Virus record (IMG/VR): IMGVR_UViG_3300036861_000572
Coordinates: 2,042 to 66,041 of that record
Length of the DNA stretch: 64,000 nucleotides
DNA from: a virus
Lineage: Duplodnaviria; Caudoviricetes
Strand: one strand, 5' to 3'
In this document: positions 7,803 through 52,773 of the stretch, piece by piece
How the letters are laid out: the number at the start of each line of letters is the position of its first letter
How positions within the stretch are numbered: position 1 is the first letter of the stretch
The notes under the pieces: model-generated
Seen by the model: the letters and a program-made list of their open reading frames with translations, nothing else
What the model was told of the DNA's origin: nothing
Database searches by the model: none
Translations under genes and position numbers: made by a program

Positions 7803-7892
7803 GCCATTGCCTCCCTGAAGGTGGTGGCCAGGCCCCCGGTGTTCACAGCACGCGGGGGCCACTCATTGCAGCTATTTTAGCAGGTCAGGGCC

Positions 7893-7923
7893 ACTTTCTA
7901 GATTCTAGGTTCTAGGATCTAGT
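7893..7923. repeat. CTAG-containing tandem repeats
   Basis: ACTTTCTAGATTCTAGGTTCTAGGATCTAG; the first 16 nt recur at 11681. Confidence 0.75.
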
Positions 7924-7945
7924 ACCTACTGGTTACACTCCTGGC

Positions 7946-8251
7946 ATGGACGAACACGTCTGCGACGGCGACCAGCCGGACTGCGCCGCGTACCTGCACT
8001 ACCTGGACCCGGCCAACCGCCAGCCCGCCGAGGGCGCGGCGGCCTACCGCGTGCCACGACGGCGGCTGTCCCGCCACGTCCCGATCCGCTTCGAGGCCGA
8101 CGTGATCGATCGTGCCAAGGTCGTCGCGGAGGCTGAGGGCCTGACGGTCAGCTCGTGGATCCGGCGGCTGGTCGAACGCGAACTTGGCCCGCCACGGCCG
8201 GCCGGGACCTACAACGACGGCGCCGGGCGGTCGCGCTTCACCGTCACGTAG
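7946..8251 (+). CDS. RHH/CopG antitoxin-like protein, leaderless, antisense to the late operon
   Basis: HVPIRFEADVIDRAKVVAEAEGLTVSSWIRRLVEREL; TACACT 6 nt upstream of the ATG. Confidence 0.75.
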   Translation: MDEHVCDGDQPDCAAYLHYLDPANRQPAEGAAAYRVPRRRLSRHVPIRFEADVIDRAKVVAEAEGLTVSSWIRRLVERELGPPRPAGTYNDGAGRSRFTVT

Positions 8252-8411
8252 ACGCTTCGGCGGGTCGTGGCGAGGGTGGCCACCGGTCATCGATCGCCGA
8301 ACCGTCGTCCTTGCCTTTCGAGTGGGGGAGCACGCACGGCGGACCCTCGGTGGAGCCCTGGGTGACCAGGGGCACGCGCCCGCCCCTGCGCCCGAGCGGG
8401 GGCGGGAGCGT

Positions 8412-8843
8412 TCAGCGCTTCAGCTTCGCCAGCTCCTGCTCCAACCGCTTGATCCGCGCGTCCTGGTCGGCGTTGGCAGTCGCGTTGCGGGGGATCTGGG
8501 ACAGTACCTCGCGGAACCGGGCCAGCCGCTCGTCGCCCTGCCGCATCGCGTCCGCATACCCTGGGAACGCGACCCCGCACGTCGTCCGGCCCACAGACCC
8601 AGGAGCGGGGGGGCTGAGGAAGCACGCCGACAGCGCCGAGTTCTCCACCGTCATCGTCAGCAGCGCCGCGGCCAGGATGATCGCGACCGCGCGGCGCCGC
8701 CGGGTGGCGAGCTCGTCGCGCGGCACCAGGTCCTCGCGCAGCCCTTTGACCTCGGCACGCAACGTCTCGACGACCTTGACCAGCTCAGCGAACGATGCCG
8801 CTCGGCCCGGTCCACCGCTGCTCGTCACCGTTATCCCCCCCAT
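8412..8843 (-). CDS. membrane/coiled-coil lysis-cassette protein
   Basis: coiled coil - TM - coiled coil; located in the lysis block. Confidence 0.6.
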   Translation of the reverse strand: MGGITVTSSGGPGRAASFAELVKVVETLRAEVKGLREDLVPRDELATRRRRAVAIILAAALLTMTVENSALSACFLSPPAPGSVGRTTCGVAFPGYADAMRQGDERLARFREVLSQIPRNATANADQDARIKRLEQELAKLKR

Positions 8844-8973: not shown

Positions 8974-8976
8974 GGG

Positions 8977-18328: not shown

Positions 18329-18417
18329 GTTGCCCCCTGTGCGCGTACGCTCGGGCCACGAGAAGGCCCGGCGCGGCTCGCGACCGCCCGGGCACGGCCG
18401 ACTACCAAGGAGTCGAC

Positions 18418-18687
18418 ATGTTCGAGCGTACCGCCCAGGCATGGGGCGAGCGTCAGCCCAAGCCACCCAAGCCACGCCGCAGGCCCCGCGTGCTGATGTG
18501 GGTGATCCTGGCCGTCCAGGTCCTGTTCGCGTGGTGGCTGCTCGCCTCGTTCAGCCCCTACACCGGCCCGGCACCGTCCGACGGTGAGGCGGTCGGCAGC
18601 GCCGTCGCCGCCGTGCTCATCCTGTTCGTCTGGGCGCTGGTCAACGTGATCCTCGGCGTGGTGTGGCTGGTCACGCGCCGCCGTTAG
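18418..18687 (+). CDS. two-TM membrane protein (moron, antisense to the tail operon)
   Basis: two hydrophobic helices; has its own promoter/leader cassette at 18346-18417. Confidence 0.75.
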   Translation: MFERTAQAWGERQPKPPKPRRRPRVLMWVILAVQVLFAWWLLASFSPYTGPAPSDGEAVGSAVAAVLILFVWALVNVILGVVWLVTRRR

Positions 18688-18748: not shown

Positions 18749-19357
18749 CTATGCGGCATCGAACCTCCGGTGGCACGGCCGGCACAGTGGCAGGTAGCGG
18801 GCCAGGTCGAGGCTATACACCCGACCGTCTTCGTCACGCCGCTCGTCCGGGTCGCCGTGGTCGTAGCACCATTCGTAGGCGGGCTTGCCGCAATGCCGGC
18901 AAAGCTGCCCGCTGGCACTTCCATACCGCCGACGCAGCTTCTCGTGCACGGCGAAGTAGCTGATGCTGTCCGGGTCGGGCATGGCCCCGAGCGCGGGATC
19001 GCCGTGCTTCCACTCGCGCTTGTAGTGCATGAAGCAGAGCCCATGCGCATGAGGCTTGCGGTCGCAGCCGTCGAAGGTGCACACGGGCGGGTTCGGCTTA
19101 TGGATGTACTCCGCCGTACCGGGGTCGCCGTGCTGCTTCTGGCGCCAGTTGTGCATGGCACAGAGGCCGCGAGCCCTCGGCGGGCCGTGGCAGTCGGGGA
19201 CGGTGCACTCAGGCGGCGGTGCTGGGCGGTTGACCGGCTCCGCCGGGCCGACCTCGCCGGTTCGCCACCAGCGCAGATGGTGCAGCCCGCAGAGCTGATG
19301 CACCTTGACCTTGATCGGGCGTTCGCAGCGAGGAACTGAGCACGTACCATCCGCCAT
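18749..19357 (-). CDS. Zn-repeat HNH-like endonuclease
   Basis: three CxxxxC..(R)GLCxxH repeats, then SY.AVH..L....G.AS...C..CG..A.EW.YDH...YLPLCRPCH. Confidence 0.8.
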   Translation of the reverse strand: MADGTCSVPRCERPIKVKVHQLCGLHHLRWWRTGEVGPAEPVNRPAPPPECTVPDCHGPPRARGLCAMHNWRQKQHGDPGTAEYIHKPNPPVCTFDGCDRKPHAHGLCFMHYKREWKHGDPALGAMPDPDSISYFAVHEKLRRRYGSASGQLCRHCGKPAYEWCYDHGDPDERRDEDGRVYSLDLARYLPLCRPCHRRFDAA

Positions 19358-19457
19358 GCAGGCACCCCTCACGGTGTCGGCCAGGCCCCGGGGTCTTACC
19401 ACCGCCGGGGCCACTTCTGCGCGGATCCTACCGCGCACCTGCCACTGTCCGGTTTGG

Positions 19458-28101: not shown

Positions 28102-30059
28102 CTAGTCCTTCGAGGCCGGGACCGGCGCGGGGGTGCAAAGCAGGTAGTCGGCCTGCTGGACCACGTCGCTGGTCCCGTCCGGCATCCACGTCGTCGGTAC
28201 GGTGTGAGCGACCTCCCATTCGTACCCGACGCGTTCCAGGCACGCTTCGAGGTCGGCGCGGGTGTAGTACCCGTAGATGTCGTGCAGCTCGACGAACAGG
28301 GCCGGCCGGTACCGTTCGAGGAGGCCGGCCATCCCGTCGATGGCGTGGATGTCGGCGCCTTCGACGTCGAGCTTGATGAGGTCGAGGCGGTCCACACCGC
28401 TGGCGAGCACCTCATCGAGCCGGGCAGCCATGACGACCCCATCGCCGTTCAGGGGGCCGTCACGAAGCGGCAGAACCCGGGTGGAACCGCCCGCGACCTG
28501 GTTGTAGGGATCCTCCAGCCGGAGCATCGCCGAGGAGTCCCATGCGGCGATCTCGTTCACGCTGATCTTGCCGCCGAGGTCGTTCATGGCGATGTTGCGC
28601 CGCAGCGTCGACGCGGTGACCGGGTTGGCCTCGACCGCGATCACCCGGGATGCCTTGGCGGCCAGCCGCAACGACCAGTGGCCGACGTGGGCGCCGACGT
28701 CCAGGAACACCCCGCCCTCCGGCAGCAGCCCCTCAAGGATCGGCCACAGATCCTGCTCGTGGGGGTCGGGGCCGAGCTGGTCGCCGGCCTTCCCGCCACG
28801 GTCGACCCACAGCAGCCCGTCCGCCTCCCGGATCTTCACCGGCATCCGCGCCGGGTCCGGCGGCCGGGTCAGGTCCTCGCGGCGGCGCTCCAACGCGTCG
28901 GCGAACCGGTCCAGCGCCGGCCGCCAGTAGCGGTCGACGACCCGGTCGGCGTCGTAGGCTTGCGCGAACGCCCACGCCTCGGCCCGGACGTCCTCACTGC
29001 GGGCCTGGTCGTAGGCTTCCTCGTACGCCTGGGCGATCTCTGAGATGCGGGGCACGGCCGCCCAGCCGCCCTGGGAGTCGTGCCACATCCGCTCGTAGCC
29101 GACCTTCCACCCCGCGCCGACCAGCTCCGGCATCGCCGTCGCATCCGTCACCACGACGGGGACGCCGCACGCCTGTGCCTCCACGATCGGGATGCCGAAC
29201 CCCTCCCCGTACGAGCAGTTACTCAGCACGTCGCAGGCCCGGTACACCTCCGCCACCGCCGCCGGGTTCAAGCCCTTCCGGTAGGCGTAGACGTCGGTGT
29301 ACGTGTAGGAGCCCTTCGGCAGCATCCGTTCCAGGAACGGCCGCAGCCGCATCCCGGCGGGCTGGTCGACGTCGCAGTGCAGGACCAGCATCGCGTCGGA
29401 GTGCTTGCGGCGGAGCTCGGCGAACGCGGCGACCTGCTCGGCGAACGCCTTGCGGTTGCCGTCCCGGCCGACGTTGTTGGCGACCATCCCCACCACGAAC
29501 GCATCCTCCGGCAAGCCCACGCCCTGCCGGGCGGCGGCCTGGTCACCCGGCGCGAATGTCGCGGTGTCGATGCCGTGGGGAACGTAGACCGGGCTGAACC
29601 CCGCGTCCTGCAAGGCCCGCTCGCCGAAGCGGCTCATGGCGATCGGGATGGCGCCCATCACGTTGAACCAGGAGCGGACGACGTCGGGGACGGCGAGGTG
29701 GTCGATCGGCACCCATGATGCGACGGCGAGCTGGTCGAGCAGGGGGCTCTCGAACGTCCACACGTCGCCGAGGGTGACGATGATCCCGCGGCAGGACGCC
29801 TCGTGCAGGCTCTTGGAGGAGTGGGCGTCGAAGTGGTGCAGGGCGTGGGGGACGATCACGTCCGACCCATATGAGGCGCTGTAGGACGGGTAGATCTTGA
29901 TCCCGTTCCACTCCATCTCCGAGCCCTGGTGGCCGTAGTACGCCGAGATGGCGAGGTCGTGGCCGAGGGCTTTGATGCGGGGCGCCATGATGCCGGTCTG
30001 CGTCCCGTAGCCGGTCAGGTGGGTGCCCATGGCGCCACCGAGTGCCACAAGATTTTCAC
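28102..30059 (-). CDS. GT4-like glycosyltransferase fused to FkbM methyltransferase; 5-nt interruption after codon 14
   Basis: EGFGIPIVEAQACGVPVV; FLDVGAHVG, IKLDVEG; N-terminus MKILWHSVAPWAPT lies in another frame, separated from GYGTQ by TGACC. Confidence 0.85.
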
Positions 30060-30604
30060 CCCAGCATCACCTCCTTCTTCGCGCCGTGCCGAGTCATGTG
30101 GCACAGGGCGCATAGCGAGATGAGATTGGCTGGGGCGTCATTCAGCTTGTTCTCATCGATGTGGTGGACATGAAGCGCGGACCCCCAACGCTGCCGGCAT
30201 TCACCGCAGTCCTGGCAGGTCCACCGGTCACGGTCGCGGATCGTGTTGGCCAGCTCTGTCCAGTTCTTGGAGTACGGCCATTGGGCGACGCCGCCCTTCC
30301 AGGCGGTGTTCGCCTGGCCCAGGTGGCGGTTCATCCGCGATTCCGACCGGCTGCGCCGCGCGATGCCGTACTTGCGCATGAACTTCAGGATGGTGGAGTG
30401 GTTCACGCCGCACGCGGCGGCGATCTCCCACGTCGTCTGCCCATTCGCGTAGGTGCGGCGCAGCCACGCCGCATCCTTGTAGGTGGCAGGCTGCCGGTAG
30501 TGACCAGGCCGGTAGCGATACCAGCGACGGTGGCTTGAGTCCCATGTGACCAGGTTGCTGCAGCCACACGCGCACACCGGAGCGGGGGCAGTACGATCGT
30601 TCAC
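30056..30604 (-). CDS. HNH endonuclease with HTH
   Basis: CACGC; WKGG; IRDRDRWTCQDCG...VHHIDENKLND..NLISLC..CH. Confidence 0.9.
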   Translation of the reverse strand: MNDRTAPAPVCACGCSNLVTWDSSHRRWYRYRPGHYRQPATYKDAAWLRRTYANGQTTWEIAAACGVNHSTILKFMRKYGIARRSRSESRMNRHLGQANTAWKGGVAQWPYSKNWTELANTIRDRDRWTCQDCGECRQRWGSALHVHHIDENKLNDAPANLISLCALCHMTRHGAKKEVMLG

Positions 30605-30682
30605 GCGGTCCCTCCTAACCAGGGATCGAAGTGGCCCGGGGGGACGCTCGCTACGTCCCCCGGGCTGCGCTTTTCCACTCTA

Positions 30683-43178: not shown

Positions 43179-43682
43179 TCAGCGCCGCCATGTTCTGCCA
43201 CTACGAATGGCATAGACGGTGGATTCCGAGACGCCAAAGCGAGCCGCCGTCATCTCTACTGGCTCAAGGCCGGCGAGACGCCTGATCTCCACGACTTGTG
43301 GCCAGGTGAGCCTGGGAGTGTGCGTACCCGTCCGCAGGCCAAGCCTGATTGCGTGCTGAGCATTGGCCTTCGGGGTCGCCCATTCCAGGTTGCCGAGACA
43401 GTTGTTGGCCTTATCCCCATCCTGGTGGTTGCACTCATGGCCTCGGGGGCACGGGCCGATGAACGACTCCAGGACGAGCTGATGGACCTTTCGGTCACGC
43501 CGCTGGCCATACCGGAACAGGGCGACCTGCCGGTATCCCTGTCTCGTCGGCCTGGGGGCCAGGACAAACCCGGGCCTGGTGCGTGAACCACGGGCGACCC
43601 GCCGCACTCGTCCGTGGTCGCTGACCTCGTACCAGCCCTCATATCCGACGACGGGAAGCCAGCGTTCGGTAGCATCAGCCAT
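43179..43682 (-). CDS. NUMOD4-HNH homing endonuclease
   Basis: ERWLPVVGYEGWYEVSDHGRVR; VHQLVLESF..CNHQDGDKANN..NLEW.T..N. Confidence 0.92.
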   Translation of the reverse strand: MADATERWLPVVGYEGWYEVSDHGRVRRVARGSRTRPGFVLAPRPTRQGYRQVALFRYGQRRDRKVHQLVLESFIGPCPRGHECNHQDGDKANNCLGNLEWATPKANAQHAIRLGLRTGTHTPRLTWPQVVEIRRLAGLEPVEMTAARFGVSESTVYAIRSGRTWRR

Positions 43683-43836
43683 GCTCGGCACCTCCATGGG
43701 GTGTCGGCCACGGCCCGGGCGGTCGCCACCGCGCCGGGCCACTCTATGGCGGTATTCTAGCAGGTCAGAGGCCATATTCCGAATCTTCCGGTGCAGGGGG
43801 CGGACCCTGTCGGGGGTCCGCCCAACGATGGTCGGA

Positions 43837-43956
43837 CTAGGCCCAAATCCACTTGTCGGCGGCCAGCGCGGCCGGGGCGAGCGCGAGCAGCGCGCCGGCG
43901 GCCAGGGTCACGGCCACGGCCACGCGCGTCCGCCAATGCTTCGAGCGGTCCTTCAT
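43837..43956 (-). CDS. 39-aa signal-peptide propeptide
   Basis: GGAGGTGA RBS; MKDRSKHWRTRVAVAVTLAAGALLALAPAALAADKWIWA; 10-bp hairpin at 43798-43823 downstream. Confidence 0.7.
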   Translation of the reverse strand: MKDRSKHWRTRVAVAVTLAAGALLALAPAALAADKWIWA

Positions 43957-43961
43957 GCGGT

Positions 43962-45108: not shown

Positions 45109-45461
45109 CAGAGTGGCTCCTCGTCATCGGTGTCGTCGTCGTCATCGGGTGCGGTGATGGCGGGCTGGCTTGCGGAGTCGCGAATCATTCGGCGGGCGCT
45201 CCACGTGCTGACCGGCTCGGCCGGGGCGTCCATCGCGGCGACCAGCCGGGCGGTCTCCTCGTCGACCGCTTCCCAGGAGTAGACCGCCGAGGGGTTGAGG
45301 TGGATCGTGCGGGCCTGGTGGCCGCCCGAGGCCGGGATGTCCAGGCGGAGGAAGTCCTGCCCGGCGACCTTGACCTCGGTCAGGAACCCGGCGGCGCGCT
45401 GCCGGCCGAAAAGGTCACATACACACCATTGGCCCAGCGGCTTCGCGTCCTGCTCGATCAT
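45108..45461 (-). CDS. conserved phage hypothetical protein
   Basis: WC.CDLFGRQR.AG..TE..VAG..FLRLDIP. Confidence 0.7.
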   Translation of the reverse strand: MIEQDAKPLGQWCVCDLFGRQRAAGFLTEVKVAGQDFLRLDIPASGGHQARTIHLNPSAVYSWEAVDEETARLVAAMDAPAEPVSTWSARRMIRDSASQPAITAPDDDDDTDDEEPL

Positions 45462-45465
45462 GGCA

Positions 45466-45954
45466 TCAACCTCCGATGATCGGGCCGGCGTCCTGATCCT
45501 CATCAGCCAAAACGGCCCGGAGGCGCCCGGCCAGCTCACGCAGGGCCGGATCGCCATCGGCCTTCGGGCCGATGACCTGCTCGCACTCGCGCAGCATGCC
45601 CTCGTAGAACTCCCGGTCTTGCCGTTCGCTCGCCCAGTCCTCGGTGATGAACGGGATACGCTCGTGGCTCTCGCGGATGGCCTGGACGACCTCGGCGAGC
45701 ACCTCGACGGGCTGGTCGTGGTGGAGGTAGCCGGCGAGCGGTTCGAGGACGGCGAGCAGGTCGGCGACGTCTCCGGGCGCGTGGGCGATGAAGGAGGCGT
45801 CGCCGGGCTCGAAGACGGTGACGATCCAGCGGTCGGAGTCCACCTCGCGCTCAACGACGATCTCGGTGTTGCCGCCGAACGGGCGGGGCGGCTCTGCCCT
45901 CCACCGTCCCGGCGTCACGGCTGCTCGGCGCCGGGAGATCTCGGTGAGGTTCAT
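45466..45954 (-). CDS. Ead/Ea22-like protein
   Basis: AVTPGRW...DASFIAHAP.DV.DLL. Confidence 0.65.
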   Translation of the reverse strand: MNLTEISRRRAAVTPGRWRAEPPRPFGGNTEIVVEREVDSDRWIVTVFEPGDASFIAHAPGDVADLLAVLEPLAGYLHHDQPVEVLAEVVQAIRESHERIPFITEDWASERQDREFYEGMLRECEQVIGPKADGDPALRELAGRLRAVLADEDQDAGPIIGG

Positions 45955-46658
45955 GGTGTCCCTTTCGTGGTTGTCGTGGGTGCGGGGCAGGCACCCCACA
46001 GGCCCCACTTGTGGGCCTTCGCGTCGGCTTCCAGCTCGGCAAAGCCCTTGGCATGCAATGTGTTGGGCCGGATCGGCAGCACCCTCGCGAATCCGCCATG
46101 CAGCAGTTCAGCATTCAGCATCCGGCCGCCGGGCAGCACCTCGGGCGCGTACACGTACGCCAAGAGCCGGCCGTAGCGGTCGCGGGGCTGGTGGCCGAGG
46201 ACTAGGACCAGCCGGGTGCCGGGCGGTACCAGGTGGGCGGTCGCGGCGGCAGCCTCGGGGCCGTAGCACTGCACGGGCTTGGTGGGATGGTGGGTCTCGG
46301 GGGTGTCGACGCCGACCAGACGGACGGTCTCGGTCTTGCCGTCGACCAGGCGGGCGGCCAGGGTGTCGCCATCGACGACGCGGACGACCCAGGCGGCGCA
46401 GGTGTCGTCGGGCGCGCGGGCGCACGCCGCTGAGCTGGTGGCCGGTATCGTGGCGGTTGTGGGCGGGGAGGCGGGGAACGCGGTGGTCGGGTCGCTCCGT
46501 GTGCAGCCGGCCAGGACGAGGGTTCCCAGCAGCGCGGCCAGGGGCAGCGCCCGGCCGAACGCCCGGTAGAACGAGCGCAGGACGAACCCGCCCTGGGAGA
46601 CCAGTGCTGCCTTGGCGAACTCCTGGCCGGCCCGTTCGCCCAGTTCGGTGCAGTCCAT
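45951..46658 (-). CDS. thermonuclease (SNase) lipoprotein (start uncertain)
   Basis: LAGC lipobox; VVDGDT, VRLVGVDTPE, DRYGRLLAYV, GLW. Confidence 0.92.
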   Translation of the reverse strand: MDCTELGERAGQEFAKAALVSQGGFVLRSFYRAFGRALPLAALLGTLVLAGCTRSDPTTAFPASPPTTATIPATSSAACARAPDDTCAAWVVRVVDGDTLAARLVDGKTETVRLVGVDTPETHHPTKPVQCYGPEAAAATAHLVPPGTRLVLVLGHQPRDRYGRLLAYVYAPEVLPGGRMLNAELLHGGFARVLPIRPNTLHAKGFAELEADAKAHKWGLWGACPAPTTTTKGTP

Positions 46659-46780
46659 CTCGTCGGGGTGCAGCTCGACCGTGACCGGGACGGTGTGCTG
46701 GCGGACCAGGTCGTGCCGCTGTCCGCGGGGCTGGCCGGTCACGGGGCCGCTCCCAGGCGCCTGGTCGTCGCCGGGGCCGA

Positions 46781-46860
46781 GGGACATGGGGGCCGGCTGG
46801 CTGGACGTTCGGAACGAGGAACGAAGGAACGAACGGTAGGCCAGCCGGCCCCCATGTCCC
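46781..46860. repeat. perfect 21-bp inverted repeat with a GAAC-repeat loop
   Basis: GGGACATGGGGGCCGGCTGGC ... GCCAGCCGGCCCCCATGTCCC. Confidence 0.85.
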
Positions 46861-46872
46861 GTTGGTTGATGG

Positions 46873-47517
46873 TCATGCGGTGGCCTCTTCGCGGGTCAGG
46901 TGGTTGAGCAATTCAGCTCCGATGAAGGCGGTGTAGACGGGCGGGATGGCCTGAGAGAGCTCATCGCCGGTCATCCAGTCGATGCCCATGGCCTGGCTGC
47001 CGACGTACACGCCGACGTCGCCGGTGACCGAGACGTGCAGCCCGGCATCCCAGCAGGCCCGCCGCTTCTTCGTCGAGGTGCGGACCAGATGCGGCGGGTG
47101 GCCCGGTTGCATGACGAACCAGGACAGCTCAAACCAGCGGTGCCGGTAGGTCCGTAGCCCGAACATGGCGCCGCAGAGGTTCAGGTCCCGGCGCATCCGC
47201 GCGCCGGGGACGTTCTCGATCACGTAGGGCAGTCCGGATGCGGCCAGGCGGTCACGGGTCGCGGCGAGCATCCACCCGGTGTCGTCCTTGCCGACCAGGG
47301 CCGATAGGGGCGTGTGGTCGTGGCACGGCGGTGAGGCGTGGACGGCGTCGAACCCGTCCAGCGGGAACTCAAGGGCGTCGGCCTGGTAGAAGGCGTCGCT
47401 GCGGTACCTCGGCTGGGGCCTTATGTCGACGCCGGTGACGTGGAAGCCGGCCTGCTGGTAACCGGCCGCACTGCCTCCAGCACCACAGAAGAGATCCACG
47501 ATGCGTGGCCGGGTCAT
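46873..47517 (-). CDS. short C5-cytosine DNA methyltransferase
   Basis: DLFCGAGG, HASPPC, ENV, RHR.FE, QAIPP. Confidence 0.9.
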   Translation of the reverse strand: MTRPRIVDLFCGAGGSAAGYQQAGFHVTGVDIRPQPRYRSDAFYQADALEFPLDGFDAVHASPPCHDHTPLSALVGKDDTGWMLAATRDRLAASGLPYVIENVPGARMRRDLNLCGAMFGLRTYRHRWFELSWFVMQPGHPPHLVRTSTKKRRACWDAGLHVSVTGDVGVYVGSQAMGIDWMTGDELSQAIPPVYTAFIGAELLNHLTREEATA

Positions 47518-47684
47518 GGCCGGTACCTGTCGGGGTAGGCGCGGACCGCCGCGCGGGCCATGACGGCGTGCTGGAGGTCATGGACGTGGGCGGCGAAGTC
47601 GGCCGGGTCGATGTCGGGCAGGACGGCGCGGCAGTCGCCCAGGTACAGCTCAACCGAGTCGTCGGCGTAGTACGGGCTGGCCAT
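47514..47684 (-). pseudogene. truncated DNA methylase N-terminus fused to an unrelated C-terminus
   Basis: PYYADDSVELYLGDCRAVLP (N4/N6 MTase start) with no DPPY, joined to FAAHVHDLQHAVMAR. Confidence 0.55.
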
Positions 47685-47826
47685 CAGGCCACCGCCCAGA
47701 TAGAATCGCGGCACGGTACCGGCCCGCCGTAGAAGTGTCGGACCACGCAACGGCCCCCGCATGCCGTCCGGCCGGCGGCAGGGGGCCGTTTGGTTGCTAC
47801 GCGGCGCGGCGGGCGGTGGTGCCGTG

Positions 47827-48372
47827 CTAGCTGATGTCCTGCCAGTCCTTGCCGGTGCGTTGCATGATCCGGCCGTCGGGCAGCAGCATGACGTCGCCGT
47901 GGGCGAACGATCCCGGGATCTTCACCGTGGGCGAGGGGGTTCGCTGCGGGCGGGTGCGGCGGCCGAGGCGGCGAAGCTTTCCGTGGCCGACGACGAGCGC
48001 AGTCGCGACCGGTAGCCATCGTTCGTGGTTGATCGGCCAGTCCGCCCACCAATGGGCTGAAAAGCGCCACGAGCTGTGATGATGACGCTCGCACAAGAAG
48101 CAGAGCATCCACGGGCTTTCGTGGCCGTAACTCACCGTGGTGATGTGGTGGAGGTGCAAGGGGCCGGCGCAGCGCCAGCCGGCGGCGCAGCGGTAGCCCC
48201 TGCTGGCCGCGACCCGTTCGCGGAGGGCGTACCACTCGGGCGAGTGCCGGTAGGCGGGGCGCTTGTCGTTGGGGATGCGGCCTTTCGCCCAGGGCCAGAT
48301 GATAGTGAAGAAGACCACGGCCCAGAGGCAGTAGATCCCGAACCAGACGGCAGTCGCGCGCATATGCCGCAA
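47827..48372 (-). CDS. membrane-anchored HNH-like protein
   Basis: N-terminal TM; Y..SPEW..LR...YRC....C...LHLHH.T....HE....L..LC..HH. Confidence 0.6.
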   Translation of the reverse strand: MRHMRATAVWFGIYCLWAVVFFTIIWPWAKGRIPNDKRPAYRHSPEWYALRERVAASRGYRCAAGWRCAGPLHLHHITTVSYGHESPWMLCFLCERHHHSSWRFSAHWWADWPINHERWLPVATALVVGHGKLRRLGRRTRPQRTPSPTVKIPGSFAHGDVMLLPDGRIMQRTGKDWQDIS

Positions 48373-48396
48373 TCTTGACAGACGTGCGGGGCGGCG

Positions 48397-48738
48397 TCAC
48401 GGGGTCGCCTCCGACCACGGCAGCCGAAGGCCGTCGCCCGCAGTCCTCGGGACGATGTGCAGGTGCAGGTGGAACACACTTTGCGTGGCTACCGCGCCGA
48501 CCGAGGTGATGAGGTTGCAGGCTTCGATGCGGGAACGGTTGGCGGCGTAGTCGGCGGCGGCTTCAGCCACTTGCCCTGTCACGCTCGGGGCCTGGAGGGC
48601 GTCGGTGACGTGGTCGGTCGCTACCGCCAGTAGGTGGCCGGGTACGACGGGATGCAGCGGCTCGATGATGAGCACGTCGCCGTAGTCGGCCAGCACCGGG
48701 CCGGACCAGTCGCAGAACGGACAGGTCACGACCGCCAC
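48397..48738 (-). CDS. HIT-family hydrolase
   Basis: CPFC; PVVPGHLL; QSVFHLHLHIVPR. Confidence 0.9.
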   Translation of the reverse strand: MAVVTCPFCDWSGPVLADYGDVLIIEPLHPVVPGHLLAVATDHVTDALQAPSVTGQVAEAAADYAANRSRIEACNLITSVGAVATQSVFHLHLHIVPRTAGDGLRLPWSEATP

Positions 48739-49553
48739 CTCCAGGTCAGCTCGTGCTCGAACAGCGGTTCGGGGATGCCGTAACGGCCGGTGTCGGGCGG
48801 CGGCGTCGTCCGGGGCCGGACGGTGGCCGGCTCCGGCTCGCGTGCTGCGTCGCTGGCGGTGGGTGGGGCGGGCTGGGTCGGCGCGGCCCGGTGGGCGCGG
48901 ACCGCCTCACGGAGCTCGCTGGTGGTGTGCTCTGAGGGTTTGAGGCCGGCGCGGCGGGCGTGGATCGCCAGGTCCCGGACCAGCATGCGGTCAATGTCGT
49001 CGGGGGGGCGGGGCAGGGCGGGCGGTGGGCGGCCGGTGACGGCACGCTGGCCGTGGCGGGTGATCCAGCCCAGGCCGCGGCGGCCCAGGCCCATCGCGCG
49101 GCGGTGTTCTGCGGTCTGCTGGACCCGGCGGGTCTCGGCCGACCACGCCAGCGGGTTGGCGAGGTAGCCCAGCCGGCCGGTGACGACCCGCCAGGCGACG
49201 AACGCGGCGGCGGTGAAGGCGACGAACCGCACCGTGCGGCCGACGGCGTTGCCCACCGCGGCGGGCAGCAGCATGCCCGAGGCGAGGTTGACCCAGGTGA
49301 CGGCCGCGAACACGAACGCCAGGGCGCCGTAGAGGAGCAGGTGGCGCAGGCCGTAGCGGTGAACAACCCACATGGCCAGGATGAGCAGGACGGTGATGGC
49401 GGCGTAGGGGTTGCGGCCCAGCAGGTAGAAGCCCCACCCGGCACCGGCCCAGGTGAGCAGGGCGGCGGGTGCGCGGCGTAGCAGCACCCCGGCGACGAGG
49501 GCCAGGGCGGTCCAGGTCAGGACGCCGGCGAGGGCGGGGTCGAGGTTGGTCAC
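48726..49553 (-). CDS. polytopic membrane protein
   Basis: about five TM segments; coupled. Confidence 0.7.
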   Translation of the reverse strand: MTNLDPALAGVLTWTALALVAGVLLRRAPAALLTWAGAGWGFYLLGRNPYAAITVLLILAMWVVHRYGLRHLLLYGALAFVFAAVTWVNLASGMLLPAAVGNAVGRTVRFVAFTAAAFVAWRVVTGRLGYLANPLAWSAETRRVQQTAEHRRAMGLGRRGLGWITRHGQRAVTGRPPPALPRPPDDIDRMLVRDLAIHARRAGLKPSEHTTSELREAVRAHRAAPTQPAPPTASDAAREPEPATVRPRTTPPPDTGRYGIPEPLFEHELTWRWRS

Positions 49554-49708
49554 TTCGACGCGCCGGTGAACATGTCGGCGATGGCTTGGAAGATCTGGTG
49601 GGCGACTCCCACGCCGACGTACTTGTCGACCAGCCTCGTGACGACCACGGCCAGCACAAGGAAGGCGAAGACGTAGACGATCATCTGCCCGATGGTCATG
49701 TTCCGCAC
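49550..49708 (-). CDS. small membrane protein
   Basis: GGAGG RBS; one TM segment. Confidence 0.6.
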   Translation of the reverse strand: MRNMTIGQMIVYVFAFLVLAVVVTRLVDKYVGVGVAHQIFQAIADMFTGASK

Positions 49709-49776
49709 TGGCATTACCTCCGCTTGGGCGCGCCGATGGCGCCGTAGATTCGGGTCACGCGGGTCGTCGGCGCCCC

Positions 49777-51954
49777 CTAGTCGGCAGGGTGGGAATTGGC
49801 TGGTTGCTGGTATGGCGTCAGGTGCGCCTGGACCTCCTGCAACGTGCCGTCGGGATTCCGCCACCAGCCCCGCCCACGCGGGCCTTTGCGGGCGTGCGGG
49901 ACGGGCCGGTCCAGGGCCAGCGCGTACTCGCCGGCGTCGAGCCAGCCGGCCAGGCGCGCGTCGAAGCAGGAGCGGACGTGGCCGCCGATGGCGTCGGCGC
50001 GGGCGTCGACGGTCAGGGCCAGGACGTGGACGCCGCGCTTGCCGCCCTGGTCGAGGAATTTCTCCTCGACCAGCATGGCGGCATCACGGCGGGGGGCGTA
50101 GCTGGGCGAGGTCTTGGCGGGGATGCGCAGGACGCTGCGGGTCTCGTCGATGACCAGCAGGATCCGCGTGGTGGGCTCGACCAGGGGGTCGCGGGCGTCG
50201 TAGGCGGCTTCGACGCGGCCCAGGGTGCGGCGGATGGTGAGCTGGTCGTGGACGCTGGGGTCGATGACTTCGACCTGCCAGTGCCGCAGCCGGCGGACGT
50301 AGCCGCCGAGCCACAGCGCGAACGAGCTGTTGTGCGTCGGGATGCAGGACCGGCCAGCCAGGTAGAGGCGATTTGGCGAGTCCACCTGAATGCAGCGCAC
50401 GGGCACCGACGGCACCGGGCGGACGTCGGTGACGTAGCGCCGACGCTGCACGTCCCGGATCGCGCCGAGCTTCTGCCTGTTGAGCTTGCGGGGCAGCCGG
50501 AACACGGGCAGGTCGCTCACGAAGCTGATCCCGTACTCAGTGCCGCAGGGCTTGCCATAGAGCGTAGCCAGCGAGGTGCTCATTCGGGCCTTGATCCCAA
50601 GGCCAATGATCAGTTCGAGCACCTGTTCGGCGAGGACTTGCCTGGTGATCGAGAACCGGCAGGCGCCAGCCCCCATCGCCTGGGCGGTGCCGTCGGTGTC
50701 CATCAGGCCCTGCAGCAGCGCGAGGCGCTGCGGCACCGAGGCATGCAGGTATTGGCGAGGGATGTGCTTGTCGTTCAGGACGCCCATCAGCCGCAGCGTC
50801 TTCTGCAGGCCATAGATCCGGTAGCTCGTGGCCTTGCCGGCGTTCTGTGCCCTGGTCGGCTTGAGCACGTAGCCGGCGCTTTCGATCTCGGCGACGATCT
50901 CGGAATCGGCGGTGGTGATGATTGCGGCGCTGGAATAGCCGTCACCGAGCCAGGCGCCGAGAACGTAGGGGTCGACTGGCAGGTCAGCGGGTGGGTACTG
51001 CAACGGTGCGGTGAGGCCGATCGAGTGGTTGGCGTACCTCTTGGCGCCCTGCGGCCAGTGCAGCGTTGCGCGGATCTGTTCGGTGGTGGCCAGCGCCGGC
51101 CCGGTGCGCTTCCATGGCTGGTCGTGGTACGGGGCACGCATGGGGTTGGCGAGCACCCTGCGCCGGTCGGCTGCCGAGCGGCGCGCTGCTCGGGTCTCGG
51201 TCAGCCACTGATGCTGGGTGTCAGCGACGATCACCGAGCCGTCGTCAAATTCAACCGCGTAGCAGGACCGGTCGTGCATTGTCTCGGTTGTGGCCAGGAT
51301 GGTGCAGGGTTGGCCGCGCTCATCGAAGACCTGGCCACCGGGGGCAAGTTCGCCCATGGTGGTCCAACCAGTCGGCGTCGGGACCGGCGTGTCTAGCGCC
51401 AGCGCCTTGCCCCAGCCGGTGCGGGCGACGACGAGGCAGTGGTAGGCGGCGGTCACGTCCCAGGTGGCCGGGCCCGTGGCCGTCTCGCCGACGGGCAGGA
51501 CCCACGGCGCCAGGAACGCCGGTTCAGGGTGGGCGGGGACCTCGGGCAGCCCGGGGGCCTGGGCGATGACGACCCAGCGGGACCAGCGGCCACGGCAGCG
51601 GGTGACGGTCCATGGTCGTCCGGTGTGGTGCTCGAAGTGGCTGGCAAGGCCACCGAACCTGGATTCGTCCGGGTTGAGCCGGCAAAACGCCAGGTAGCGG
51701 ACGGGGAGGCCGCCTTCGGTGCGCGGCGAGGGCCAGACGTGGCCCTTGACCGGGGTGCGGGTCGGCAGGCCGGGCGCGACGCCGGCGCGTGCCCTGGCTT
51801 GTCTGGTCGAGTCGAACAGATGGCCTTCGTCGATGCACAGCGTCCACAGGCGGTTCCACGTCGTGACGTAGCGGACGACGGGGGGAACGAACGCGCCGGT
51901 AACCGCAGCGAGCATCAGCACGAAGGCGATGGCGACAAGGAGCGACCAGGTCAT
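49777..51954 (-). CDS. FtsK/TraB-like membrane ATPase containing an intein
   Basis: N-terminal TM; H.LVVARTGWGK|S Walker A; LLVIDE Walker B; GVHVLAL; PRGRG. Confidence 0.75.
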   Translation of the reverse strand: MTWSLLVAIAFVLMLAAVTGAFVPPVVRYVTTWNRLWTLCIDEGHLFDSTRQARARAGVAPGLPTRTPVKGHVWPSPRTEGGLPVRYLAFCRLNPDESRFGGLASHFEHHTGRPWTVTRCRGRWSRWVVIAQAPGLPEVPAHPEPAFLAPWVLPVGETATGPATWDVTAAYHCLVVARTGWGKALALDTPVPTPTGWTTMGELAPGGQVFDERGQPCTILATTETMHDRSCYAVEFDDGSVIVADTQHQWLTETRAARRSAADRRRVLANPMRAPYHDQPWKRTGPALATTEQIRATLHWPQGAKRYANHSIGLTAPLQYPPADLPVDPYVLGAWLGDGYSSAAIITTADSEIVAEIESAGYVLKPTRAQNAGKATSYRIYGLQKTLRLMGVLNDKHIPRQYLHASVPQRLALLQGLMDTDGTAQAMGAGACRFSITRQVLAEQVLELIIGLGIKARMSTSLATLYGKPCGTEYGISFVSDLPVFRLPRKLNRQKLGAIRDVQRRRYVTDVRPVPSVPVRCIQVDSPNRLYLAGRSCIPTHNSSFALWLGGYVRRLRHWQVEVIDPSVHDQLTIRRTLGRVEAAYDARDPLVEPTTRILLVIDETRSVLRIPAKTSPSYAPRRDAAMLVEEKFLDQGGKRGVHVLALTVDARADAIGGHVRSCFDARLAGWLDAGEYALALDRPVPHARKGPRGRGWWRNPDGTLQEVQAHLTPYQQPANSHPAD
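50329..51405 (-). mobile_element. class-3 (WCT) intein with LAGLIDADG endonuclease, 359 aa
   Basis: Ala1 ALALDTPV; HQW; VRCI; PTHN|S; LLQGLMDTDG. Confidence 0.92.
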
Positions 51955-52532
51955 GGCCGTCGTTCCTTCGGGAGGAACCGGCCCGTCGCGGGGTCGCGGG
52001 GCAGGTTGCGAGCGTGGTCGTAGGCCTCCGGCCTGCGGTTGCGGTTGCCGGCGTACGCCTCGGGTCCCCGGTTGCGGTTCTGCTCGCTCCAGGTCGCCCA
52101 GCGGCAATTGCTCGGCTCGTAGTTACCGTTGCCGTTGATCCGGTCGAGCGTGTGCTTGGAGGTCGGCTTCGGCCCCATGTCGGCGAGGAAATTGGCGAAC
52201 GATCGCCACCGCTCGCAGACGGTGATGCCGCGACCGCCGTAGTAGGGGTAGCTGATGTGGGTCGGGAGCGTGCATCGGTCCAGCATGCCGCGCCATGCCC
52301 GGTGCTCGGGCGTGCGGGACTTGCCGTGCGTTCTGCGCCTCGCACCGGTGATCTCCCGTTGCAGGCAGCCGCAGGATCGCGTCTTACCCGTCACGAGCTG
52401 GGCGACGCGAACTCGGACTTCGACACCGCAGTCGCACCGGCACGGCACCTGGAACGTCGCCGCCGTTCCGTTGGCCAGTGCGAGCAGCCGTCCGTACTTC
52501 GTGCCCGCGTTGACCGGGGTACGCTCAGCCAC
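51951..52532 (-). CDS. HNH-type homing endonuclease (CxCDCG/SCGC family)
   Basis: CRCDCG, TRSCGC, YGGRGITVCERW, LDRINGNGNYEPSNCRWAT..EQ..N. Confidence 0.9.
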   Translation of the reverse strand: MAERTPVNAGTKYGRLLALANGTAATFQVPCRCDCGVEVRVRVAQLVTGKTRSCGCLQREITGARRRTHGKSRTPEHRAWRGMLDRCTLPTHISYPYYGGRGITVCERWRSFANFLADMGPKPTSKHTLDRINGNGNYEPSNCRWATWSEQNRNRGPEAYAGNRNRRPEAYDHARNLPRDPATGRFLPKERRP

Positions 52533-52614
52533 GCCATCGCCTCCTGTCAGGTGGTGGCCGGGCCCGGGGCGTCGCAAGCGCCGCCGGGCCGTTACATGAC
52601 GGTATTTTACCAGG

Positions 52615-52773
52615 TCAGAGGGCATATTCCGAATCCGTGTTCGAGAGACCAAACGAGACGGCGAGGGTCCAGACCCGGATCCAGGCCTTGACCCAGTGGA
52701 CCAGGGGCACACCGAAGGTGAGCGCGGCGGCGACCACGCAGCCGGCCAGGCTGGCGACGAGGACGGCGGTCAT
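52615..52773 (-). pseudogene. orphaned N-terminus of the FtsK-like gene
   Basis: TM followed by PLVHWVKAWIRVWTLAVSFG, versus PPVVRYVTTWNRLWTLCIDEG; stops inside the cassette left end. Confidence 0.55.

What the first reader, a model, noticed from the sequence alone, without database searches (positions are those of the whole stretch)
7803..52635. Six copies of an unnamed promoter + double-hairpin leader driving unrelated cargo genes
Seen: at 7803-7892(-), 18346-18417(+), 19358-19430(-), 30605-30682(-), 43683-43785(-) and 52533-52635(-), a -10 box (TAAAAT, TACGCT, TAGGAT, TAGAGT, TAGAAT, TAAAAT) is followed 11-13 nt later by a GC hairpin GGCCC...GGGC(C). A second hairpin (mostly starting GCC(G)AC(C)ACC) then pairs with the Shine-Dalgarno sequence just before the start codon. 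Stem sequences differ between copies but pairing is kept. The copies at 43.7 kb and 52.6 kb also share about 40 nt upstream (GATTCGGAATAT..CTCTGACCTG.TA.AATACCG.CAT). The cargo is five endonucleases of different subtypes plus one antisense membrane protein. Inference: a portable cis-regulatory RNA module that gives toxic or selfish genes their own transcription while restraining translation, possibly with an unknown trans-acting switch. RBS-occluding hairpins are known for T4 homing endonucleases, but I do not recognise this motif.
Basis: partly seen in the sequence, partly recalled or inferred. Interest (0 to 1): 0.82.

Follow-up and report, generated by a model that had tools for sequence, protein, structure and literature searches.

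The report
Antisense control cassette heading phage nucleases
A control unit of about 90-115 bases, with two facing promoter boxes around two conserved RNA hairpins, sits in front of five selfish DNA-cutting-enzyme genes and one membrane-protein gene of this uncultured GC-rich phage and of many other actinobacterial phages and genomes. It probably makes a small antisense RNA that holds those genes' translation down, although no RNA has yet been seen.

Summary
A covariance model built only from six foreign copies finds five of the six sites at E 5.7e-12 to 5e-4. The 30.6-kb site has the same layout but is not significant (E 6.6; 0.32 with a broader model).

The element is a real, covarying family:
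- It is absent from Rfam.
- It occurs in 1-5 copies in all 10 other IMG/VR phage records searched, most with unrelated portal genes.
- It occurs in Arthrobacter phage Richie and in 11 of 151 sampled Actinomycetota genomes.
- Cargo is mostly HNH-type nucleases (24 of 36), plus membrane proteins. In cellular genomes it includes integrase-like and excisionase-like genes.

- The conserved unit runs into codons 3-5, whose invariant letters spell TANNNT on the opposite strand, at a fixed distance from hairpin 2, in 48 of 54 copies.
- Hairpin 2 is more stable on the antisense strand in 53 of 54 copies, because its mismatches are A.C/C.A (G.U on the other strand).

Best reading (0.6): two facing promoters, an SD-occluding leader and a cis-antisense RNA, like IS200 tnpA/art200. 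No transcript data exist. This scan reached the same reading before on other DNA (e1-5867646, e1-6067341).

The parts
7790..7890 (-). Cassette s1. Conserved CTGACCTG. Sense -10 TAAAAT 7874-7879, preceded by TGC. Hairpin 1 7831-7860. Hairpin 2 with SD 7803-7829. GTG start 7800-7802. Codons 3-5 carry the antisense hexamer.
   Evidence: (R1 43.4 bits, E 1.6e-7, 7800-7865)
7790..7795 (+). s1 antisense -10 box TACGCT (ORF positions +13..+8)
7200..7802 (-). Cargo c1: HNH_3 endonuclease, 200 aa
   Evidence: PF13392, 36 bits; phrog_826, 7.7e-48
18346..18430 (+). Cassette s2. Sense -10 TACGCT 18346-18351. Hairpin 1 18366-18393. Hairpin 2 CGACT/AGTCG over the SD. ATG 18418-18420.
   Evidence: (R1 26.9 bits, E 5e-4, 18362-18420)
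18425..18430 (-). s2 antisense -10 box TACGCT
18418..18687 (+). Cargo c2: 89-aa protein with two hydrophobic stretches (by eye) and no family match. It converges on c3.
19345..19430 (-). Cassette s3. Sense -10 TAGGAT 19425-19430. Hairpin 1 19384-19412. Hairpin 2 with SD. ATG 19355-19357.
   Evidence: (R1 46.9 bits, E 2.8e-8, 19355-19417)
19345..19350 (+). s3 antisense -10 box TACCAT
18749..19357 (-). Cargo c3: 202 aa; phrog_4160 (unknown function) and HNH PHROGs 5351 and 1271
30592..30682 (-). Cassette-like site s4. It has the same layout but is not significant by model. Sense -10 TAGAGT 30677-30682, preceded by TGA. Hairpin 1 30634-30665, without the bulged C. Hairpin 2 CGATCCC/GGGACCG. GTG 30602-30604.
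   Evidence: z -3.07; E 6.6; E 0.32
30592..30597 (+). s4 antisense -10 box TACGAT. The antisense hairpin 1 here is followed by a UUUU run 5 nt downstream.
30056..30604 (-). Cargo c4: HNH endonuclease, 182 aa. It is absent at the syntenic place of the related record G001.
   Evidence: PF01844, 25.6 bits; phrog_8446
43670..43785 (-). Cassette s5. Left end shared with s6 (GATTCGGAATATG.CCTCTGACCTG). Sense -10 TAGAAT 43754-43759. Hairpin 1 43712-43740. Hairpin 2 with SD. ATG 43680-43682.
   Evidence: (R1 64.2 bits, E 5.7e-12, 43680-43745)
43670..43675 (+). s5 antisense -10 box TAGCAT
43179..43682 (-). Cargo c5: NUMOD4 + HNH_3 endonuclease, 167 aa
52520..52635 (-). Cassette s6. Shared left end. Sense -10 TAAAAT 52604-52609. 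Hairpin 1 52561-52590. Hairpin 2 with SD. GTG 52530-52532.
   Evidence: (R1 45.8 bits, E 4.9e-8, 52530-52595)
52520..52525 (+). s6 antisense -10 box TACGCT
51951..52532 (-). Cargo c6: 193 aa, phrog_374 HNH endonuclease
   Evidence: 6.5e-60

Best explanation
Each copy is a two-promoter control cassette of about 90-115 bp.

Sense side (inferred):
- A host-type -10 box, often with an upstream TG, starts an mRNA 4-6 nt before hairpin 1.
- The first ~65 nt of that mRNA fold into a stable 5'-terminal GC hairpin, then a weaker hairpin.
- In the weaker hairpin a CACC-type copy of the ribosome's anti-SD pairs with the 3' half of the SD (GGAGGUG) and the spacer, right up to the start codon.

Antisense side (inferred):
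- Codons 3-5 of whatever gene follows spell TANNNT on the other strand.
- From it a small RNA of about 70-80 nt would start opposite the start codon.
- It would fold into a perfect 9-10 bp version of hairpin 2, with the anti-SD sequence at its stem-loop junction.
- It would run through the complement of hairpin 1 and end near the sense start site.
- This RNA is fully complementary to the leader, SD and start codon. The two hairpin-2 loops are complementary, so it should pair with the mRNA and block 30S binding, or expose the duplex to cleavage.
- The facing promoters may also interfere with each other.

Net effect (inferred): nucleases, membrane proteins and recombinases carried by mobile DNA are kept at low, copy-number-limited expression, as in IS200 and IS10.

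Shown here:
- conservation
- covariation
- the fixed antisense hexamer
- the strand asymmetry of folding
- portability across unrelated cargo and unrelated phages

Inferred only:
- both transcription starts
- the existence and ends of the antisense RNA
- pairing
- repression
For: 1. Fixed antisense -10.
- ORF positions +8 A, +12 T and +13 A are kept in 30 of 38 distinct copies. All six window copies have them.
- Measured from the model's 3' end, ANNNTA starts at +7 to +9 in 32 of 38 copies. It does so in 16 of 16 copies of a later set from cellular genomes and phage Richie. The rate at random positions is 71 of 2850.
- The in-phase background in long genes of the window is 5 of 7642 codon positions. 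It is 0 of 44 at other gene starts.
- Codon 4 encodes 10 (first set) and 8 (second set) different amino acids, always with a T-ending codon. The genome's third-position GC is about 0.9. The constraint is therefore on the DNA, not the protein.
- The hexamer lies outside both models, so the models did not select for it.
- TANNNT is the preferred SigA -10 in M. smegmatis, with no conserved -35 (PMC6448022, passages).

2. Strand asymmetry.
- Hairpin 2 is more stable on the antisense strand in 38 of 38 copies (mean -12.9 against -7.4 kcal/mol) and in 15 of 16 of the second set. Hairpin 1 is equal on both strands (-23.0 and -23.0).
- Of 46 non-Watson-Crick cells in helix 2, 34 are C.A or A.C, which read as G.U on the other strand. 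Only 1 is a sense wobble. In the second set the figures are 22 of 23 and 0.

3. Antisense folds of the window copies.
- They give clean two-hairpin structures with z -3.14, -2.00, -2.87, -3.29 and -3.06 (s2: -0.09).
- The sense folds of nearly the same stretches give z -0.83 to -1.25 (s4: -3.07).

4. Real structure. 15 of 19 pairs have double changes, and the covariation score is 0.376 against 0.083 in shuffles.

5. Portability.
- All 10 other IMG/VR records searched carry 1-5 copies. Portal identity to this phage is 77% in one record, 26-29% in six and undetected in three.
- Cargo of 36 copies: 24 HNH-superfamily nucleases of many families, 4 unclear, 8 others.
- In cellular genomes the cargo includes integrase-like and HTH_17 proteins.

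6. Precedent. [quoted passage not shown]
Against: - No RNA evidence of any kind exists. No RNA run holds this DNA, so nothing could be laid.
- An E. coli-type scan of 43500-43900 finds no two-hexamer promoter and no hairpin-plus-T-run terminator on either strand.
- The antisense hexamer has no visible -35 or TG extension.
- The tail after antisense hairpin 1 is only mildly T-rich: 3.4 T in 10 nt against 1.5 expected. That stretch is also the sense start region, so the count is ambiguous.
- 6 of 38 copies lack the hexamer.
- The s2 antisense fold is no better than shuffles.
- A.C mismatches could instead reflect selection to keep the sense hairpin weak enough for translation.
- Copies are related by descent, and several come from near-identical records, so counts overstate independent events.
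- Alignments A6 and A8 were fitted to the model. R2 learned its mismatch pattern from A6, which may favour the same mismatches in A8.
- Hairpin 1 keeps an unpaired C (38 of 54 by strict parse) and an AA at the loop's 3' end. The antisense model does not explain either.
Confidence: 0.6

Rival explanations
1. Cis-only leader. A promoter drives an mRNA whose 5'-terminal hairpin stabilises or insulates it. Its second hairpin occludes the SD to throttle translation. No antisense RNA is made. The conserved letters in codons 3-5 serve the sense mRNA, for example as an unstructured A/U-containing start region.
For: - The sense -10 is at a fixed distance in the six window copies. Strict TANNNT is present in 30 of 52 copies against 1.4% of random segments.
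- Hairpin 2 does pair the SD on the sense strand.
- T-even homing endonucleases use RBS-sequestering hairpins (PMC2988022, passages).
- There is no RNA evidence for the antisense strand.
Against: - It does not explain why exactly the three defining letters of TANNNT are kept on the other strand while codon 4 changes amino acid.
- It does not explain why 34 of 46 mismatches are the kind that pair on the other strand and only 1 is a sense wobble.
- It does not explain why the antisense hexamer (48 of 54) is better kept than the sense one (30 of 52).
- Sense folds are not better than shuffles for five of the six window copies.
Confidence: 0.2
2. Protein-read operator. Hairpin 1, with its unpaired C and conserved loop end, is the binding site of a phage or host RNA-binding protein or RNase. 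That protein is the real switch, and the rest is context. This could coexist with the antisense RNA.
For: - Hairpin 1 keeps a single unpaired C in 24 of 38 and 14 of 16 copies by strict parse.
- Its loop tends to end in AA.
- These features go beyond what a stabiliser or terminator needs.
Against: - No candidate protein was sought or found.
- The lower stem varies by compensatory change.
- It does not explain the hexamer or the hairpin-2 asymmetry.
Confidence: 0.08
3. DNA-level element. The hairpins act in single-stranded or cruciform DNA as recombination or insertion joints for cassette exchange, in the manner of PeSL cassettes or attC sites. The promoter-like boxes are secondary.
For: - Cassette-plus-cargo units are gained or lost between relatives. 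G001 (portal 77% identical) lacks the c4 unit at the syntenic place.
- The same cassette heads unrelated genes in unrelated phages.
- PeSL promoter/stem-loop cassettes mediate shuffling in T4-type phages (PMC2839356, abstract).
- G.T pairing could also favour one DNA strand.
Against: - The copies are scattered, not in arrays.
- No dedicated recombinase travels with them in the phage copies.
- Two -10 boxes at fixed distances, and an SD and start codon built into the fold, point to expression control.
- Exact junctions were not mapped here.
Confidence: 0.07
4. Plain paralogy or chance. The copies are only the shared 5' ends of duplicated nuclease genes, or GC-rich hairpins that arise by chance.
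For: - Any 70%-GC stretch folds well (sense z about -1).
- Many cargo proteins share an N-terminal x-E-R-T-C start.
Against: - Cargo belongs to different families and includes non-nucleases.
- A foreign model finds five copies at E down to 5.7e-12, with nothing else in the window below 0.14.
- Compensatory changes occur in 15 of 19 pairs.
Confidence: 0.02

Closest known systems
IS200 tnpA 5'UTR stem-loop plus art200 antisense RNA (PMC4513863; passages read)
   Same: - A selfish gene is involved.
- A near-consensus SD is sequestered in a 5'UTR stem-loop.
[quoted passage not shown]
- Its promoter lies just inside the ORF.
- The loops of the two RNAs are complementary.
   Different: - There is no sequence or Rfam relationship.
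- Cargo is homing-type nucleases, membrane proteins and recombinase-like genes, not one transposase.
- The unit is portable between unrelated genes and imposes codons 3-5 on them.
- The host is Actinomycetota and the promoter boxes are of SigA TANNNT type.
- The antisense RNA has not been observed here.
IS10/Tn10 RNA-IN / RNA-OUT (PMC5006887, search listing only; details of the system recalled)
   Same: - Two promoters face each other.
- Their transcripts overlap at the translation start of a selfish gene.
- The antisense partner is a stable stem-loop RNA.
- Repression depending on copy number would be expected.
   Different: - The overlap here would be about 65-70 nt and span two hairpins.
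- There is no homology.
- No experimental support exists here.
RBS-sequestering hairpins of T-even and Aeh1 homing endonuclease genes: I-TevI, I-TevII, I-TevIII, segB, mobE (PMC2988022; passages read)
   Same: - Homing endonuclease genes have a consensus SD locked in a hairpin.
- The aim is to restrict nuclease translation.
   Different: - In those systems a late promoter sits so that its transcripts lack the 5' arm and escape the hairpin. Here the sense -10 lies upstream of both hairpins.
- Here a second, inward-facing promoter box and an antisense-biased fold are present.
- Those hairpins are not a shared portable sequence family.
CfrI antisense RNA of cyanophage S-PM2 (described in PMC2984593; passage read)
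   Same: An experimentally seen phage antisense RNA runs opposite a homing endonuclease gene and is thought to regulate it.
   Different: - CfrI is about 225 nt.
- It links the nuclease gene to psbA.
- It is not described there as a repeated portable cassette, or as covering the RBS with a conserved two-hairpin fold.
PeSL (promoter-early stem-loop) cassettes of T4-type phages (PMC2839356; abstract read)
   Same: - Small repeated promoter-plus-stem-loop units are scattered among non-essential genes.
- They are associated with gene gain, loss and replacement.
   Different: - PeSL stem-loops are terminators, and PeSL units are not described there as containing the SD, the start codon or an antisense promoter.
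- Recombination at the present cassettes was not shown.

Membership tests
T-even-type homing-endonuclease RBS hairpin with embedded promoter | A hairpin sequesters the SD of the nuclease gene | tested here: met
   In silico only. Hairpin 2 pairs the 3' half of the SD and the spacer. Helix 2 is 84.4% paired with compensatory changes in 6 of 8 pairs. Mean sense stability is -7.4 kcal/mol.
T-even-type homing-endonuclease RBS hairpin with embedded promoter | The gene-proximal promoter is placed so that its transcripts lack the 5' arm and escape the hairpin (PMC2988022) | tested here: not met
   The sense -10 lies 11-13 nt upstream of hairpin 1. It is therefore upstream of both hairpins in all six copies.
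IS200 tnpA/art200-type control (SD-sequestering leader plus cis-antisense RNA) | The 5'UTR stem-loop sequesters the SD | tested here: met
   (prediction and covariation; no probing).
IS200 tnpA/art200-type control (SD-sequestering leader plus cis-antisense RNA) | A small RNA is transcribed from the opposite strand, starting inside the first codons and covering the 5'UTR | tested here: inconclusive
   A promoter box TANNNT sits at a fixed place in 48 of 54 copies. The antisense strand folds better in 53 of 54. No transcript data exist.
IS200 tnpA/art200-type control (SD-sequestering leader plus cis-antisense RNA) | Repression depends on loop-loop pairing of the two RNAs | not testable with these tools
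   The loops are complementary by construction. Mutational tests are needed.
IS200 tnpA/art200-type control (SD-sequestering leader plus cis-antisense RNA) | Sequence or structure homology to the IS200 element | tested here: not met
   No Rfam family matches at gathering score in the window. None matches at E <= 1 in 15,320 bases around five copies. This assumes Rfam holds the IS200 RNA, which was not checked.
IS10 RNA-IN/RNA-OUT | Facing promoters whose transcripts overlap at the translation start of a transposase | tested here: inconclusive
   The two facing -10 boxes are about 79 bp apart at s5. Cargo is nucleases, not a transposase. The feature itself is recalled, not read.
Intrinsic terminator (hairpin plus T run) as the identity of hairpin 1 | A GC stem-loop followed within 0-2 nt by at least 5 T in 8 | tested here: not met
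   There were 0 sites on either strand in 43500-43900, the only region scanned. Tails after antisense hairpin 1 hold 3.4 T in 10 on average.
Any Rfam 15 family (4227 models) | A match at or near the gathering score | tested here: not met
   0 matches.
Type I toxin-antitoxin (hok/sok kind; features recalled) | A small hydrophobic toxin whose translation is blocked by a cis-antisense RNA over its start region | tested here: inconclusive
   Five of the six window cargos are nucleases of 167-202 aa. c2 is 89 aa with two hydrophobic stretches by eye. Three related copies elsewhere head membrane proteins, one with a weak Sie-like match (phrog_8545, 3.5e-5). Toxicity was not tested.
PeSL-type mobile regulatory cassettes | Repeated promoter/stem-loop units at the joints of gene gain, loss and replacement | tested here: inconclusive
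   One presence/absence case was seen: the c4 unit is absent in G001. Breakpoints were not resolved.

The most novel reading that the evidence does not exclude
The cassette is a horizontally mobile, general-purpose 'governor' of actinobacterial mobile DNA.
- Because its antisense promoter is written into codons 3-5, any gene that acquires it also acquires its first five codons.
- Its antisense RNAs act in cis and also across like cassettes. In this genome s1/s6 and s3/s5 could cross-pair.
- A phage or prophage would thereby cap the total output of its nucleases, recombinases and membrane toxins by copy number.
- The conserved ends would double as joints for swapping cargo.
Probability: 0.3. 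Interest if true: 0.85.

Novelty: new variant of a known kind. Interest (0 to 1): 0.72.

Why it matters
Homing endonuclease genes are among the commonest selfish passengers of phage genomes, yet their control is known only for a few T-even cases.

What this adds:
- It would be a distinct, shared solution for a large group of GC-rich phages and prophages: a portable unit carrying promoter, leader, RBS, start codon and (probably) its own antisense repressor.
- It explains why unrelated nucleases begin with the same five codons. It also flags start-codon misannotations, for example gp96 of phage Richie.
- It gives a compact, testable regulatory part for Actinomycetota.
- It fits a pattern this scan has met in several phage lineages, which suggests a general rule for taming selfish nucleases.
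- Arthrobacter phage Richie, a cultured phage, carries a copy, so the question can be tested at the bench.

Tried and rejected
- Near and distant DNA searches of the named-phage collection found no relative of the window. With the s5 cassette as query they gave only chance Ralstonia hits. The capsid protein finds nothing above about 37% identity. Records near the window may be left out of that collection by the tool.
- The first viral pattern scan returned 96 loci, about what chance predicts. Only 17 of the 96 hold a model hit at E <= 0.01. The rest were dropped.
- The genome contigs pattern scan gave 51 loci, of which 4 had R1 hits. One of these, L138 (Comamonas, 28.9 bits), lies in what looks like coding sequence. 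It has no -10 box and no hexamer, so it was judged false.
- MAFFT alignments of the copies (A1-A3) were not structurally consistent and were not used for models.
- s4 was tested for membership with two models and is not significant. A third, full-length model including both promoter boxes was considered and not built.
- Public sequencing runs: no RNA holder is listed for window 43001-53000.
- The E. coli-type promoter and terminator scan found nothing in 43500-43900. Only that region was scanned.
- Ideas looked for by eye and not found:
  - that the promoter sits inside the hairpin, as in T4;
  - that the 5' CCGAC and 3' CGAC of hairpin 2 co-vary as direct repeats. One lineage (L047, L067) suggests it and L010 contradicts it;
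  - an alternative pairing between hairpin 1 and the GGCC that follows it.
- A trans-acting protein factor shared by cassette-bearing phages was not searched for.
- Literature searches found no description of this cassette. They cover only the held library. Supplementary files, where lists of candidate RNA motifs are usually printed, are closed and were not seen. The statement 'not described' rests on these five searches and on Rfam.

Full report
**Setting.** The window is 64,000 of the 66,041 bases of an IMG/VR virus record that CheckV rates complete. It is about 70% G+C and encodes no tRNA. Nearly all genes lie on the minus strand. They include an integrase, tape measure, major head protein, protease, portal, a long terminase and a primase. 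It looks like a temperate tailed phage of a high-GC host. No close relative is in the named-phage collection.

**The observation.** Reading the six places confirms the description.
- Each has a TAnnnT box. In four of six it is preceded by TGn.
- After 11-13 nt comes a GC hairpin.
- Then comes a segment, typically GGCC(G)AC(C)ACC, that pairs with the 3' half of the SD and the spacer up to the base before the start codon.
- The real starts of c1 and c6 are the GTG five bases after the ATG.
- The cargo is five HNH-type nucleases of different Pfam and PHROG families, plus an 89-aa protein with two hydrophobic stretches on the opposite strand.
- A simple pattern for hairpin 1 plus the following motif matches four times in the window and never in 100 shuffles.

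**A family, not a coincidence.**
- The same pattern pulled 96 loci from IMG/VR, about the number chance predicts. Inspection and later modelling showed a minority with the whole layout.
- I built covariance model R1 from six of these foreign sequences alone, with a hand-set structure.
- R1 finds five of the six window sites (64.2, 46.9, 45.8, 43.4 and 26.9 bits; E 5.7e-12 to 5e-4). Nothing else in the window scores below E 0.14, and there is nothing in the remaining 2 kb of the genome.
- The 30.6-kb site scores only 7.7 bits (E 6.6), and 17.9 bits (E 0.32) with the broader model R2. By model it is not a significant member, although it has the same parts in the same order.
- 17 of the 96 loci hold hits at E <= 0.01.
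- All 10 full records behind them carry 1-5 copies.
- Only one of those records is a close relative (portal 77% identical). Six have portals 26-29% identical and three have no detectable match. The element is therefore shared by otherwise unrelated phages.
- Rfam has nothing, either at gathering score over the window or at E <= 1 around five copies.

**Structure.** On the model-fitted alignment of 41 hits (38 distinct):
- 91.8% of cells pair, against 75% in column shuffles and 35-49% when partners are slid.
- 15 of 19 pairs show changes on both sides.
- The covariation score is 0.376 against 0.083.
- The alignment is fitted to the structure and the copies are related, so these figures are generous. 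The compensatory variants are nonetheless plain to the eye: CACC/GGTG, CACG/CGTG, TCCC/GGGA, CGACT/AGTCG.
- Hairpin 1 has a 7-8 bp GC lower stem, a single unpaired C (24 of 38 and 14 of 16 copies by strict parse), a 3-5 bp upper stem, and a loop that tends to end in AA.

**Cargo.** Two of the 38 distinct copies were dropped: L107, which is followed by only 22 codons, and L129, a borderline hit.
- Of the remaining 36 proteins, 24 are HNH-superfamily nucleases (HNH_3, HNH, HNH_5, endonuclease VII, or strong HNH PHROGs).
- 4 are unclear: L127, L128, L124, and L049, which is cut by its contig end.
- 8 are something else, including five predicted membrane proteins.
- The window's convergent pair, cassette-HNH facing cassette-membrane protein at 18.3-19.4 kb, recurs in L019 and L122.
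- Not every nuclease gene has the cassette. The HNH at 38453-38974 has a -10 box six bases before its ATG. The endonuclease VII-like gene at 44267-44842 is translationally coupled to its neighbour.
- The related record G001 lacks the c4 unit at the syntenic site.

**The turn in the reading.** A note from this scan on another genome (e1-6067341) proposed that a similar cassette makes an antisense RNA, so I tested that here.

First, the cassette does not stop at the start codon.
- Positions +8 A, +12 T and +13 A of the ORF are kept in 30 of 38 copies and in all six window copies. Positions +9 to +11 vary.
- On the other strand this reads TANNNT. That is the preferred SigA -10 of M. smegmatis, where no -35 is conserved (PMC6448022).
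- Counted from the model's 3' end, the hexamer starts at +7 to +9 in 32 of 38 copies, against 2.5% of random positions.
- In-phase background in the window's long genes is 5 of 7642, and 0 of 44 other gene starts show it.
- Codon 4 encodes ten different amino acids, always with a T-ending codon, in a genome whose third positions are about 90% G+C.
- Non-nuclease cargo keeps the letters too. The constraint is on DNA, not protein.

Second, the fold is asymmetric.
- Hairpin 2 is more stable on the antisense strand in 38 of 38 copies (-12.9 against -7.4 kcal/mol), while hairpin 1 is equal.
- 34 of the 46 non-standard cells in helix 2 are C.A or A.C, which become G.U on the other strand. One is a sense wobble.

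Third, the antisense strands of the window copies fold into clean two-hairpin structures with z of -2.0 to -3.3 (s2 is the exception at -0.09). The sense strands score about -1, with s4 the exception at -3.07.

**A second set.**
- A short blastn hit led to Arthrobacter phage Richie (MH834625.1). R2 finds two copies there: one before the HNH gene gp96 and one before gp47.
- A restrictive pattern scan of species genomes gave three true copies in actinobacterial MAGs.
- R2 then hit 11 of 151 Actinomycetota genomes at E <= 1e-4. That count includes the centre genome and one unpublished genome. Without both it is 9 of 149.
- In the 16 copies gathered this way, the hexamer is present in 16 of 16, antisense hairpin 2 is the more stable in 15 of 16, and 22 of 23 non-standard cells are A.C or C.A.
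- The hexamer lies outside the model, so that result is independent of it. The mismatch pattern may be partly favoured by the model.
- Cargo in this set includes integrase-like proteins (26.1 bits, just under Pfam's cut-off), an HTH_17 protein, and small unknowns.

**Mechanism.**
- The simplest account is a two-promoter cassette. It has a sense mRNA with a 5'-terminal hairpin and a weak SD-occluding hairpin. It also has a small antisense RNA that starts opposite the start codon, carries a perfect version of hairpin 2 with the anti-SD sequence at its stem-loop junction, and runs through hairpin 1.
- The closest worked example is IS200, where an SD-sequestering stem-loop and the 90-nt art200 RNA independently block 30S binding (PMC4513863). 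IS10 RNA-IN/RNA-OUT is similar.
- T-even homing endonucleases also hide their RBS. They rely on a promoter placed inside the hairpin (PMC2988022), which is not the case here.
- An antisense RNA opposite a homing endonuclease gene has been seen once, in cyanophage S-PM2 (PMC2984593).
- Within the window, the antisense of s1 could pair with the s6 leader (-62 against -79 kcal/mol for self). The antisense of s3 could pair with s5 (-48).

**What weighs against it.**
- There is no RNA evidence.
- An E. coli-type scan sees neither promoter nor terminator at the s5 cassette.
- The antisense tail is only mildly T-rich.
- Six of 38 copies lack the hexamer.
- The A.C bias could instead serve to weaken the sense hairpin.
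- The special features of hairpin 1 remain unexplained.
- I put the antisense reading at 0.6 and the cis-only leader at 0.2. Smaller shares go to a protein-read operator and a DNA-level recombination joint.

**Novelty.**
- Five literature searches and Rfam give no description of this cassette. Supplements could not be read.
- The principle is known from insertion sequences. Its use as a portable unit on homing nucleases and other mobile-element genes of Actinomycetota, with the promoter written into the cargo's first codons, is a new variant.
- The scan itself reached the same reading earlier on other DNA (e1-5867646 and e1-6067341 for GC-rich and actinobacterial phages). It has found analogous cassettes in T4-like and other phages.

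Noticed in passing
window 38940-39030 (-), gene 38453-38974 (-): An HNH_3-like nuclease gene (E 2e-30 to cargo L117) has no cassette. A TGGTATAAT box ends 6 nt before its ATG, which suggests a leaderless mRNA. The box and the bases after it resemble the s1 promoter.
   Followed up: partly
window 44267-44842 (-): An endonuclease VII-like gene overlaps the stop of the upstream ORF by ATGA. It has a CACC...GGTG pairing around its SD but no hairpin 1 and no -10 box.
   Followed up: partly
window 7893-7925 (-): Three tandem CTAGAA-type repeats (CCTAGAA CCTAGAA TCTAGAA) lie directly upstream of the s1 cassette. This is unusual in 70%-GC DNA.
   Followed up: no
window 35800-38679 (-) and 49777-52107 (-): The 959-aa terminase matches terminase PHROGs in two separated blocks. 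The 776-aa protein matches only long 'terminase' PHROGs in its middle (residues 226-597). Both may carry inteins.
   Followed up: no
window 30007-30059 (-) versus G001 about 6400-6440: The start of the glycosyltransferase/methyltransferase gene has about five extra bases, including an in-frame TGA, relative to the related record G001.
   Followed up: partly
window 52615-52620 (-): The TGA inside the conserved CTCTGACCTG of the s6 cassette is the stop codon of the upstream ORF 52615-53007. The cassette's left end therefore closes a reading frame.
   Followed up: partly
window 43790-43815 (-): A GC hairpin (GGGCGGACCC...GGGTCCGCCC) follows a 42-codon ORF and lies just upstream of the s5 cassette's shared left end.
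   Followed up: no
MH834625.1 52419-52482 (L185, L187): The annotated start of phage Richie gp96 (52435) lies inside the cassette's hairpin region. The cassette predicts a GTG start at 52480.
   Followed up: partly
L115 (record G009), cassette at 1501-1566 (-): Here the cassette's start codon opens only a 14-codon ORF. The HNH gene starts 38 nt further on. This may be an upstream ORF or a frameshift in a C run.
   Followed up: no
L019 1947-3289; L122 205-1566; window 18346-19430: A convergent two-gene unit recurs in three records. Each gene has its own cassette. One is an HNH nuclease and the other a small membrane protein (weak Sie-like match in L019, phrog_8545, 3.5e-5).
   Followed up: partly
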